NCBI RefSeq assembly: GCF_009914755.1 | Contig: NC_060940.1 | Source: the human T2T-CHM13v2.0 reference genome, Homo sapiens | Direction: 5' to 3' (one strand) | Length of the DNA: 64,000 bases | In this document: in pieces, positions 608 through 1,880 of the stretch | Layout: every line of letters begins with the position of its first letter | Position numbering within the stretch: position 1 is the stretch's first letter | Translations under genes and position numbers: made by a program | Notes under the pieces: generated by a model | Database searches by the model: none | Seen by the model: the letters and a program-made list of their open reading frames with translations, nothing else | What the model was told of the DNA's origin: nothing

Positions 608-613
608 TTTATT
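608..613 (-). terminator. Poly(A) signal of the STUB1-divergent transcript/pseudogene
   Basis: TTTATT on + (AATAAA on -), about 105 nt past the pseudogene stop at 719. Confidence 0.75.
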
Positions 614-718
614 GAGCTCCCGTAGTGGCCAGCCTCCTCTTCAGCCTCCCTGCCGTCCAGTGAGACCCGGAGGCCTGAGGTTCTGTGGCAGGTGAGCAGG
701 CCTGGGCCATGGCCAAGT

Positions 719-1880
719 TTACTCGGCCTGGGTTCCATGCTTCTTGGCTGGCCTAGCATCCTCGTGGGTGGCCAGGCTGGGGCCAAGGTTGGGCAGCAGG
801 TCTGGGCACAGCCTCTGCCCCACAGCCCAGGTCCACAGTGCTGTCTCCACTAGGTAGGGAGTCCACTGTCCTGAGGCACTGGCTAGGGAGGGGCACACGG
901 ACTCAGGCCCAGGGGCACGGGCCACCCCAACCTGCCCACACACAGTTCATTCCCCTTGGCTCAGAGCTGTGGCCCGCTCTTGAACCTGGCCCAGGTACAG
1001 CAGGTAGTACCTGAGGGTGTACTGTGGGGCCGGCCAGCCGGGCACTGTGGCCACCGCCTCATCTGACATGAAGGCCTCCATCTCTGGAGCTCCAGCTGCC
1101 AGGACTGCTGTGAACAGCGAGGAGAAGCAGCCAGACACACCCCATCAGGACAAGCTCTGGGAGACCCTGCTCCCAGCAGCCCAGGGCCCTATGGTTCCTG
1201 CTCCTAGCGACACGCAAGGGCCCAGACTGCCCGCTTCACAGACAAGAACGCCTATGTACCCAAGTCGTGCCCACCCAACTCACCCGAGGCTGTGGTGGGC
1301 CCACACCGCAGAGGGCACACAGCTCGGTGACTGCAGCCCCCACATCTGGCAGGAGGCAGAAGGTGGCGGTCGAACAGTGCACAACCAGCTCAGGGGGATT
1401 GGTGGCCACCAGCTGCTGCAGACGTGGCCGGAAGCGCCCCTCTGTGGGAGGCCAGGTCAGGGTGCCTGGGGTGCTGGACCCACCAGGGAGGCCCCGCCCC
1501 CACTGGAGACACCCGCCCCGCCGATGCCACGCCCCAATGAAGACCCGCGCTACGGAGGCCCTGCCCTCGGGGCGGGCCGCCCTTCACAGTCAAGCTGCCA
1601 GGCCAGCAGCCGCTCCAGCTCCCTGTCACATGCTTCTCTGCTCTGCCCCTGATGGCCGCTGGCAACTCTTCCCGATACCTGAGGAAGGGCGGTGAGGGGA
1701 GGACTGGCCACGGAGGACGCTCGCCCCACCGATCTCTATCCCCTTCCACTCTACCAACAGTCCGGGGCTTCCAGCCGCCCTCGGGGGCTCGCGCTCGCCC
1801 GTAGCACCTCTCGTGGCGCTCCAGAATGGCAGCCCAGCGACTGGGGTCCTCACACCCCACAGCGCGTGGGAAGCCGCTAC
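719..1880 (-). pseudogene. Unprocessed, probably unitary, pseudogene of an HhH DNA-glycosylase-like (Amun/zgc:112496-like) protein; coincides with the STUB1 divergent lncRNA region
   Basis: Exon remnants 1880-1755, 1678-1588, 1441-1284, 1107-955, 882-719, with AG acceptors and GT donors (exon 4 donor decayed to GG). Reconstructed peptides: CEDPSRWAA, YREELPAAI, GRFRPRLQQLV, LCALCGVGP(A)TASAVLAAGAPE, AFMSDEA, WTPYLVETALWTWAV. About five frameshifts and a lost ATG. Confidence 0.8.

What the first reader, a model, noticed from the sequence alone, without database searches (positions are those of the whole stretch)
608..1880. Hidden five-exon dead gene: the STUB1-divergent 'lncRNA' is a probable unitary pseudogene of an HhH DNA-glycosylase-like (Amun-family) protein
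Seen in sequence: five minus-strand exon remnants (1880-1755, 1678-1588, 1441-1284, 1107-955, 882-719) with pyrimidine-tract/AG acceptors, donors GTAGAG, GTGAAG and GTGAGT, a TAA stop and an AATAAA at 608-613. Correcting single-base indels (about 1855, 1810, 1623, the exon 2/3 junction, and 1296/1295) gives about 230 aa: (M)AASHALWGCEDPSRWAAILERH-EVLRASASPRGRLEAPDCW/YREELPAAIRGRAEKHVT-ELERLLAWQL/GRFRPRLQQLVATNPPELVVHCSTATFCLLPDVGAAVTELCALCGVGP-TAS/AVLAAGAPEMEAFMSDEAVATVPGWPAPQYTLRYYLLYLGQVQERATALSQ/ASASGQWTPYLVETALWTWAVGQRLCPDLLPNLGPSLATHEDARPAKKHGTQAE*. Established knowledge: LxxLxGVGPATASAVL followed by an Asp is the HhH signature of HhH-GPD-type glycosylases. From memory, not from a search: GRFRPRLQQLV, FMSDEA and WTPxxVExxLW match the poorly characterised Drosophila Amun / zebrafish zgc:112496 family. 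The start codon (now GTA) and the exon 4 donor (now GG) are also decayed. Inference: a conserved, putative DNA-repair or chromatin gene lying head-to-head with STUB1 was lost in the human lineage, and its promoter still drives a spliced non-coding RNA.
Basis: partly seen in the sequence, partly recalled or inferred. Interest (0 to 1): 0.93.

Follow-up and report, generated by a model that had tools for sequence, protein, structure and literature searches.

The report
Dead human copy of Amun-family gene
The "non-coding" transcript next to STUB1 is the decayed remnant of an ancient, widely conserved DNA-binding-type gene that many other mammals, reptiles, frogs and fish still keep intact, and humans have no other copy of it.

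Summary
Five minus-strand exon remnants (window 1880-719) align end to end with intact 232-aa proteins of hippopotamus, manatee, beaver and others. Identity is 170-177 of 232, and per-exon E-values against the whole human assembly reach 1.7e-19.

The human copy carries seven disabling lesions:
- a lost start codon
- three 1-bp deletions
- one net 4-bp deletion
- a TAG across the exon 2/3 junction
- a dead exon-4 donor

No second copy exists in the assembly, so it behaves as a unitary pseudogene. Source names tie the family to fish zgc:112496 and fly CG2446 (Amun). The family is large, at 3044 clusters, and also occurs in bacteria. No Pfam model reaches its cut-off except the generic helix-hairpin-helix motif.

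The glycosylase part is not shown.

Macaque and douc protein models share the hairpin frameshift, the start-codon loss and several substitutions. The loss therefore predates the split of apes and Old World monkeys.

RefSeq already labels the locus a transcribed pseudogene, but I found no paper describing it. This is a solid finding of moderate interest.

The parts
1755..1880 (-). Exon 1 remnant (codons 1-43, phase-2 end). GTA replaces ATG at 1880-1878. There are 1-bp deletions at about 1856-1852 (codon 9/10) and at 1812-1811 (codon 24).
1588..1678 (-). Exon 2 remnant (codons 43-75). A net 4-bp deletion at 1626-1619 leaves only GG where codons 62-63 should be. This exon is skipped in the RefSeq transcript.
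   Evidence: hub gene table
1284..1441 (-). Exon 3 remnant (codons 75-128), holding the WKLxRG(K/R)FRPRL continuation and the HhH hairpin. TAG is formed across the junction (1588 + 1441-1440). A 1-bp deletion at 1295-1294 falls in the Ala codon of the GPATAS hairpin.
955..1107 (-). Exon 4 remnant (codons 128-179), holding the FMSDE motif. The donor position reads GG at 954-953 instead of GT. The RefSeq transcript uses a cryptic donor at 1010-1009 instead.
   Evidence: hub gene table
719..882 (-). Exon 5 coding remnant (codons 179-232), holding WTPxxVExxLW and a basic C-terminal tail. The stop TAA is at 721-719.
593..718 (-). 3' untranslated remnant with AATAAA at 613-608. The annotated transcript end at 593 lies 15 nt after the signal.
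   Evidence: hub gene table
1903..2151 (.). GC-rich tandem repeat in the shared divergent promoter, between the STUB1-DT start (1852) and the STUB1 start (2485). Seven exact GGGGCGGGGC boxes lie at 1912-2112.

Best explanation
STUB1-DT is a transcribed unitary pseudogene. It is the only human remnant of an ancient five-exon gene encoding a ~232-aa helix-hairpin-helix protein of the zgc:112496 / Amun (CG2446) family.

The gene sat head to head with STUB1 on a shared GC-box CpG promoter. In the primate lineage it lost its start codon and acquired a 1-bp deletion inside the HhH hairpin before apes and Old World monkeys split. This timing is inferred from protein models. Each lineage then added its own lesions. 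In human these are further frameshifts, a TAG at the exon 2/3 junction, a dead exon-4 donor, and substitutions at otherwise invariant residues.

The promoter and some splice sites survive, so a spliced polyadenylated RNA is still made. It uses cryptic sites and cannot encode the protein.

The intact protein is most likely a nuclear DNA-binding protein built on an HhH, Gly/Pro-loop, Asp arrangement. It has Ala where endonuclease III has its catalytic Lys. If it is an enzyme, it would be a monofunctional glycosylase-type one. That step is inference and is not shown here.
For: Homology:
- An exon-4 query found 11 proteins among 405 candidates, including intact 232-aa proteins.
- The hippopotamus protein has 598 relatives at E<=1e-3 among 4330 candidates, named zgc:112496, CG2446, 'HhH-GPD domain-containing' and 'STUB1-DT' by their sources.
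- The human remnant is 170-177 of 232 identical to four intact orthologues, with breaks at defined places.

Gene structure:
- Two independent spliced eukaryotic homologues have four introns, at codon 43 phase 2, before codon 75 phase 0, codon 128 phase 1 and codon 180 phase 1.
- The human boundaries are codon 43 phase 2, codon 75, codon 128 phase 1 and codon 179 phase 1.

Unitary status: the whole-assembly search scored 17 candidates. Three passed, and all three are this locus.

Relaxed constraint: human departs at 5 of 45 invariant and 6 of 36 near-invariant columns. Twelve held-out intact orthologues depart at 0-3 and 1-4.

Age:
- The macaque models read the same shifted frame after GV(G/D)P.
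- The douc model has Ile at the start position.
- All three species share H/C/T substitutions in exon 3 and RYY in exon 4.

Transcription: RefSeq NR_136337.1 (hub table), AATAAA at 613-608, and GC boxes.
Against: - No orthologous DNA from any mammal could be read. Synteny (RHBDL1-gene-STUB1) and the dating of lesions therefore rest on predicted protein models and on NCBI's naming, not on alignments of genomic DNA.
- The human copy still keeps 40 of 45 invariant columns, so decay is modest.
- The RNA is still spliced and could have a function of its own.
- The glycosylase idea failed every sequence test beyond the hairpin.
- Hippopotamus and cattle carry Glu at the near-invariant Asp143.
- Drosophila Amun itself was never aligned here.
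Confidence: 0.93

Rival explanations
1. The locus is now primarily a functional divergent long non-coding RNA regulating STUB1 or the shared promoter, and the protein-like frames are only historical baggage. This is compatible with the pseudogene origin.
For: - An annotated spliced, polyadenylated transcript exists with surviving splice sites (hub table).
- It shares a GC-box promoter with STUB1.
- STUB1-DT appears once in a tumour differential-expression paper. I saw only the search listing (PMC12519442).
Against: - No evidence of RNA-level constraint was obtained.
- The transcript uses cryptic sites that look like by-products of decay: read-through of old intron 1, skipping of old exon 2, and a cryptic donor at 1010-1009.
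- No functional study was found.
Confidence: 0.15
2. The human gene still makes a protein, either through an intact allele in some people or through a shortened product from an internal ATG such as the Met before FMSDE in exon 4.
For: Exons 4 and 5 are individually open and well preserved: 79% identity each to the hippopotamus protein, and E 4e-50 for the pair.
Against: - There are seven independent disabling lesions, and at least the hairpin frameshift is shared with macaque.
- The exon-4 donor is dead, so exon 4 runs into TGA two codons later.
- Any product would lack the invariant K72/G76 block and the HhH hairpin.
Confidence: 0.02
3. It is a duplicated or processed pseudogene whose working parent lies elsewhere in the human genome, so it is not unitary.
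For: None was found.
Against: - The whole-assembly six-frame search with the intact protein found only this locus (3 matches of 17 scored candidates).
- The family profile PF21790 found nothing in the assembly.
- The remnant keeps introns at the family's conserved positions, so it is not processed.
Confidence: 0.02

Closest known systems
Vertebrate zgc:112496 proteins (uncharacterised LOC genes of hippopotamus, manatee, cattle, horse, bats, beaver, marsupials, monotremes, turtles, crocodilians, squamates, frogs, fish, sharks)
   Same: - Same length class (225-241 aa).
- Same motifs: WKLxRG(K/R)FRPRLQQLV, LKGVGPATASAVL, FM(A/S)DE, WTPHxVExxLW, and a basic C-terminal KKRK tail.
- Same five-exon layout.
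- 170-177 of 232 identity to placental members.
   Different: The human copy has no start codon, four frameshifts, a premature TAG and a dead donor. It also has changes at invariant L40, K72, A101 and L152.
Drosophila Amun (CG2446)
   Same: - A snake orthologue of the family carries the UniRef name 'CG2446 CG2446-PC', and CG2446 is listed as Amun (PMC3944433, table passage).
- Amun is described as a nuclear regulator with a glycosylase domain acting in Notch-dependent sensory organ development (passage in bioRxiv 10.1101/2025.04.04.647281 citing Shalaby et al. 2009).
- A fly screen table gives no human orthologue for CG2446 (PMC2891703).
   Different: The fly protein was not aligned here because no sequence was held. 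The original Amun paper was not held either. Many family representatives of 440-560 aa exist, so insect members probably carry long extensions absent from vertebrates.
HhH-GPD DNA glycosylases (endonuclease III, MutY, AlkA, OGG1; Pfam PF00730)
   Same: - An HhH hairpin that aligns with that of E. coli endonuclease III (LxxLxGVG..TA..VL).
- It is followed by a Gly/Pro-containing loop and a near-invariant Asp about 19 residues later.
   Different: - No PF00730 match.
- Profile-profile alignment covers only 19-20 columns (probability 8% and 57%).
- Ala stands where endonuclease III has Lys120.
- No iron-sulfur cluster motif was seen.
- No PDB relative by sequence.
Pfam PF21790 (putative OGG-like glycosylase) and PF19827 (DUF6308)
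   Same: Repeated weak matches, sometimes covering nearly the whole PF21790 model (positions 11-201 of 201 in manatee). PF21790 was hit by 6 of 31 vertebrate members, 4 of 45 of the deep set and 7 of 12 bacterial members.
   Different: Every score is under the curated cut-off (best 24.7 against 27 bits). This is at most remote kinship, not membership.
Classical human unitary pseudogenes (for example GULO; recalled, not searched)
   Same: A single-copy gene, intact in other mammals, is disabled in place, keeps its introns and is still transcribed.
   Different: Here the lost function is unknown. The family appears to be missing from several other mammal groups too, since it was not found among the listed hits.

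Membership tests
zgc:112496 / Amun (CG2446) family | Significant full-length similarity to intact members | tested here: met
   - tblastn E 4e-50, 7e-20 and 6e-16.
- 170-177 of 232 identical after reading through the breaks.
- 598 relatives of the intact protein.
zgc:112496 / Amun (CG2446) family | Family motifs: W-K-L-x-R-G block, GPATAS hairpin, FMxDE, WTPxxVExxLW | tested here: met
   All are recognisable in the human frames. However, K72 is Q, R75 is a stop and the A124 codon is frameshifted.
zgc:112496 / Amun (CG2446) family | Shared intron positions | tested here: met
   Two spliced eukaryotic homologues (L040, L041) were compared.
- Introns 1 and 3 match in codon and phase.
- Intron 4 is one codon off, in a variable stretch.
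- Intron 2 is 1 nt off: phase 0 against the apparent phase 1 in human.
zgc:112496 / Amun (CG2446) family | Direct alignment to Drosophila Amun | not tested
   No fly sequence was held. The link rests on a UniRef name and on a table equating CG2446 with Amun.
Unitary pseudogene | Disabling lesions in the only copy | tested here: met
   Seven lesions, and only this locus in the assembly.
Unitary pseudogene | Intact orthologue at the syntenic place in other species | not testable with these tools
   Intact proteins exist, but no vertebrate genome DNA was available. The only hint is NCBI's gene name STUB1-DT for a hedgehog protein.
HhH-GPD DNA glycosylase superfamily | HhH motif | tested here: met
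   - PF00633 scores 25.3 bits in manatee against a cut-off of 24.
- It is matched at E<=0.01 by 18 of 31 and 27 of 45 members.
- The hairpin aligns to that of endonuclease III.
HhH-GPD DNA glycosylase superfamily | Gly/Pro loop and catalytic Asp about 20 residues after the hairpin | tested here: inconclusive
   - D143 is at least 90% conserved in A1 and A2, and it lies 19 residues after the position aligned to Lys120.
- Hippopotamus and cattle have Glu there.
- The equivalence to the catalytic Asp is by spacing only.
HhH-GPD DNA glycosylase superfamily | Match to the family model or profile beyond the hairpin | tested here: not met
   - No PF00730 hit.
- hhalign aligned 19-20 columns only, and global mode gave probability 0.07%.
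- PDB profile searches gave nothing significant.
HhH-GPD DNA glycosylase superfamily | Two-domain all-helical fold with the hairpin at the cleft | not testable with these tools
The Atlas holds no model.
Pfam PF21790 OGG-like | Score at or above the curated cut-off (27 bits) | tested here: not met
   Best scores were 20.4 bits in vertebrates and 24.7 bits in bacteria.

The most novel reading that the evidence does not exclude
The dead human gene belongs to an ancient family of HhH proteins that is not modelled in Pfam and has no structural characterisation. The family has 3044 clusters and occurs in animals, plants and a separate bacterial clade. It may be a new branch of DNA glycosylase-like enzymes and has been discarded repeatedly in amniotes. 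Primates lost it before the ape / Old World monkey split. Most rodents, carnivores and birds were also not found among the hits. Humans would then lack a DNA-processing or chromatin activity that cattle, horses, bats, turtles and fish retain, and whose fly member is needed for Notch-dependent development.
Probability: 0.35. Interest if true: 0.7.

Novelty: new member of a known kind. Interest (0 to 1): 0.5.

Why it matters
The finding explains a locus that is catalogued as a divergent non-coding transcript. It shows that humans, and at least Old World monkeys, have lost the only copy of a gene conserved from bacteria to mammals.

The biochemical function of this family is unknown, and its fly member (Amun) has a developmental phenotype. 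The finding therefore gives a clean natural knockout to set against species that keep the gene.

It also identifies a large family that deserves a Pfam model, a structure and an activity assay. For annotation, it supports typing STUB1-DT as a transcribed unitary pseudogene and naming its parent family.

Tried and rejected
- **Pfam on single human exon translations:** 0 families for 6 of 6 fragments. The fragments are too short, so this is not informative.
- **PDB by sequence:** profiles A1 and A2 gave only noise or hairpin-level matches. The best were E 0.053 (a phycobiliprotein) and E 0.047 (a ComEA hairpin), with MutY's hairpin at E 0.55.
- **NCBIfam:** no meaningful hit for 7 proteins.
- **Structure prediction:** No fold search was possible.
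- **Search for true PF21790 members as a bridge:** none in the human assembly or in 14 control genomes. In five bacterial genomes the only matches, in two of them and both under the cut-off, lay over the family genes themselves.
- **Atlas search restricted to named clusters:** only leads below 0.9.
- **Bacterial gene neighbourhood:** I scanned 40 of the 67 flanking ORFs found in 19 loci. No recurrent partner appeared. ChaN occurred 3 times in three closely related loci, and MgsA, Tex, RNR small chain and malate synthase once each. This gave no functional clue.
- **Synteny probe:** a human STUB1 TPR exon searched in the two records holding spliced homologues gave only weak TPR hits on another contig of one record and none in the other. 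No adjacency was shown.
- **Literature:**
  - 'STUB1-DT' gave 1 paper, a tumour expression list.
  - 'unitary pseudogene' + STUB1 gave 0 papers.
  - Amun + pseudogene + Notch gave 1 irrelevant abstract book.
  - 'unitary pseudogene' + glycosylase + primates gave 2 irrelevant reviews.
  - zgc:112496 appears only in a zebrafish expression table (PMC4140902).
  - The original Amun paper was not held.
- **Chance similarity and a processed or duplicated origin:** rejected.
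Full report
**What is there**

- Five open stretches lie at 1880-1755, 1678-1588, 1441-1284, 1107-955 and 882-719.
- Pyrimidine-rich AG acceptors lie at 1680-1679, 1443-1442, 1109-1108 and 884-883.
- Donors are GTAGAG, GTGAAG and GTGAGT. GG stands at the exon-4 donor position (954-953).
- TAA is at 721-719, AATAAA at 613-608, and GTA at the expected start (1880-1878).

Single-exon translations gave no Pfam hit (0 families for 6 of 6 fragments). This only reflects their length.

**Is it a gene remnant?**

A search with the 52-residue exon-4 translation among longer proteins returned 11 proteins among 405 candidates. These included intact 232-aa proteins of hippopotamus and manatee, and broken-looking models from macaques and a douc langur.

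The hippopotamus protein has 598 relatives at E<=1e-3 among 4330 candidates, of which the best 120 were listed.
- They cover placental mammals, marsupials, monotremes, turtles, crocodilians, squamates, tuatara, amphibians, ray-finned fish and sharks.
- Their sources name them 'zgc:112496', 'HhH-GPD domain-containing protein' (a horse entry), 'CG2446 CG2446-PC' (a snake transcript) and 'STUB1-DT isoform X2' (hedgehog).

tblastn of the hippopotamus protein on window 1-2600 gave E 4e-50 (exons 4+5), 7e-20 (exon 3) and 6e-16 (exons 1+2), in three different frames.

**Lesions**

I ran a frameshift-aware protein-to-DNA alignment of the five joined segments against four intact orthologues. Identity was 176, 177, 170 and 170 of 232, and all four gave the same list of breaks:
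- GTA for ATG at the start.
- A 1-bp deletion at 1856-1852 (codon 9/10).
- A 1-bp deletion at 1812-1811 (codon 24).
- A net 4-bp deletion at 1626-1619. Two bases remain where codons 62-63 should be.
- An in-frame TAG made of 1588 plus 1441-1440, where the family has Arg75.
- A 1-bp deletion at 1295-1294, in the Ala codon of the GPATAS hairpin.

With the GG donor of exon 4, that makes seven disabling lesions.

Against alignment A1 (31 vertebrate orthologues), the human reading departs at 5 of 45 invariant columns: L40P, K72Q, A101T, A124 frameshift and L152W. It also departs at 6 of 36 near-invariant columns. Twelve intact orthologues that were not in the alignment depart at 0-3 and 1-4.

**Exon model checked independently**

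Two loci fetched from contigs labelled as bacterial bins (L040, L041) turned out to carry spliced eukaryotic homologues. Both have five exons with GT-AG introns. The introns fall in codon 43 (phase 2), before codon 75 (phase 0), in codon 128 (phase 1) and in codon 180 (phase 1), in hippopotamus numbering.

The human boundaries are codon 43 phase 2, codon 75, codon 128 phase 1 and codon 179 phase 1.
- Introns 1 and 3 coincide exactly.
- Intron 4 is one codon off, in a variable stretch.
- Intron 2 is one nucleotide off.

For intron 2, the human exon 3 begins AGGGGCGC where L040 has AGGGGAAAG (Arg-Gly-Lys). The ancestral intron may therefore have been phase 0, with one extra base at the end of human exon 2 and one missing base at the start of exon 3. 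The alternative is two substitutions in a split Arg codon. I cannot decide between these without mammalian DNA.

**Only copy**

A six-frame search of the whole 3.1-Gb assembly with the intact protein scored 17 candidates. Three passed at E<=0.01, and all lie in this locus: C16:682722-683463, which is window 722-1463. The remnant keeps its introns, so it is neither processed nor a copy of a gene elsewhere. It fits the definition of a unitary pseudogene, except that synteny of the intact orthologues could not be checked here.

**Age of the loss**

This section is inferred from protein models, not DNA.
- The macaque models read ...ALCGVDPPQSQ. This is the same shifted frame that human reads after the hairpin deletion (...ALCGVGPPQPR), where intact genes read GVGPATAS.
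- The douc model has Ile, and human has Val, at the ancestral Met. The douc model has to start far upstream.
- All three species share the exon-3 changes (Q-to-H, R-to-C, A-to-T) and RYY for KHY in exon 4.

Some lesions are lineage-specific.
- The douc model keeps LEALDRW, AWKLARG and an open codon 24, so the human L40P, K72Q, TAG and codon-24 deletion look younger.
- Both monkeys read ...LELEMEAF, which implies a 2-bp deletion in exon 4 that human lacks.

So inactivation began before apes and Old World monkeys split, and each lineage has decayed separately since.

**Other losses**

Both hit lists were checked. One used the hippopotamus query (best 120 of 598). The other used the beaver query (best 120 of 321 at E<=1e-20). 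In these lists, intact placental proteins come from even- and odd-toed ungulates, whales, bats, shrew, hedgehog, beaver and sirenians.

No mouse, rat, rabbit, dog, cat or bird protein was listed, and no intact primate protein. This is 'not found among those listed', not proof of absence.

**What the intact family is**

- A profile of A1 found 3044 clusters at E<=1e-3, 1710 at <=1e-10 and 355 at <=1e-30, among 1.84 billion representatives.
- The Atlas adds a plant cluster at 0.95.
- A scan of prokaryote genomes found 41 loci, mostly Gemmatimonadota and Chloroflexota. Some lie on Mb-scale chromosomes, and identity to the hippopotamus protein is 37-50%.
- Thirteen of these bacterial sequences form one group with 100/100 support, apart from the vertebrates.
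- Across 53 eukaryotic and bacterial sequences, L48, K72, G76, G122, A124 and A126 are invariant. W71, R79, T125 and S127 are conserved in 52 of 53.

Pfam gives only generic hairpin models.
- HHH was matched by 18 of 31 and 27 of 45 members. It reached its cut-off in manatee and P0009 of the three proteins, and in three of the 24 representatives.
- PF21790 (OGG-like) matched below its cut-off in 6 of 31, 4 of 45 and 7 of 12 bacterial members, with a best score of 24.7 against 27 bits.
- DUF6308 also matched below its cut-off.

No PF00730 (HhH-GPD) match appeared. PDB sequence searches gave nothing significant.

Profile comparison with E. coli endonuclease III aligned 20 columns at probability 8%. 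Comparison with a 30-sequence endonuclease III profile aligned 19 columns at probability 57%, and global mode gave 0.07%. Both covered only the hairpin. In that alignment the family has Ala where endonuclease III has the catalytic Lys.

The near-invariant Asp143 lies 19 residues further on, after a Gly/Pro loop. This is the HhH-GPD pattern by spacing only.

Bacterial neighbours gave no clue.

**Literature**

- CG2446 is listed as Amun in a table of PMC3944433 (passage).
- A preprint passage describes Amun as a nuclear regulator with a glycosylase domain in Notch signalling, citing Shalaby et al. 2009. The 2009 paper itself was not held.
- A fly screen table gives no human orthologue for CG2446 (PMC2891703, passage).
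- zgc:112496 appears only in a zebrafish expression table (PMC4140902, passage).
- STUB1-DT appears in one tumour expression paper, seen in the listing only.
- No paper combined 'unitary pseudogene' with STUB1.
- Two other searches gave nothing relevant.

Supplements were not consulted.

**Present-day transcript**

According to the hub's RefSeq table, NR_136337.1 uses exons 1852-1679, 1441-1284, 1104-1011 and 882-593. Against the ancestral exons:
- It reads through old intron 1 and splices at a GT formed by the first bases of old exon 2.
- It skips old exon 2.
- It keeps both sites of exon 3.
- It shifts the exon-4 acceptor by 3 nt and uses a cryptic donor at 1010-1009, because the old donor is dead.
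- It keeps the exon-5 acceptor and the polyadenylation signal.

The start lies 633 bp from the STUB1 start, across a 71-79% G+C stretch. That stretch holds a tandem repeat at 1903-2151 carrying seven exact GGGGCGGGGC boxes. The whole window holds 22 such boxes, against 1.56 expected.

**Verdict**

This is a transcribed unitary pseudogene of the zgc:112496/Amun family.

Not supported is any firm statement that the parent was a glycosylase. The loss is also older than the human lineage proper.

RefSeq already types the locus as a transcribed pseudogene, so the kind of thing is known. The parent family, the lesion history, the family's breadth (including bacteria) and its lack of any model or structure are, as far as my searches reach, not in print.

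Noticed in passing
window 1903-2151: A tandem repeat (periods 34/65/92) lies between the divergent STUB1-DT and STUB1 starts. It carries seven exact GGGGCGGGGC boxes at 1912-2112. The whole window has 22 such boxes against 1.56 expected by shuffling.
   Followed up: partly
L040:1316-2486 and L041:1278-2424: Contigs deposited as bacterial metagenome bins carry a spliced five-exon eukaryotic homologue with GT-AG introns. One is titled a Stappiaceae bacterium 'chromosome: 21', in a 20.3-Mb genome handle (G047). These bins contain eukaryotic DNA.
   Followed up: partly
L005-L039 (e.g. L026:1252-2004, L030:1456-2028): A bacterial clade of the same family (~190-200 aa) is 37-45% identical to the hippopotamus protein. 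It occurs mostly in Gemmatimonadota and Chloroflexota, with single hits in Rhodothermales and Steroidobacteraceae. It has no conserved gene neighbourhood and no Pfam model above cut-off.
   Followed up: partly
hit lists (no window coordinates): Among the best 120 hits of each list there is no protein from mouse, rat, rabbit, dog, cat or any bird. Beaver is the only rodent. The elephant (268 aa, 53-57% identity) and one rhinoceros model look aberrant. This suggests several independent losses in amniotes.
   Followed up: no
alignment A1, column of hippopotamus residue 143: Hippopotamus and cattle have Glu (FMSEEA) at the otherwise near-invariant Asp of FM(A/S)DE. This is the residue that would correspond by spacing to the catalytic Asp of HhH-GPD enzymes.
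   Followed up: no
window 1679-1852, 1011-1104: The RefSeq transcript reads through ancestral intron 1 and uses a GT formed by the first bases of ancestral exon 2. It skips that exon and uses a cryptic donor inside exon 4 (1010-1009), in place of the dead donor at 954-953.
   Followed up: partly
macaque and douc models P0011, P0013, P0015 against window 1060-1107: Both Old World monkey models read ...LELEMEAF. This implies a 2-bp deletion in exon 4 relative to human, so it is a monkey-specific lesion. It is inferred from protein strings only.
   Followed up: partly
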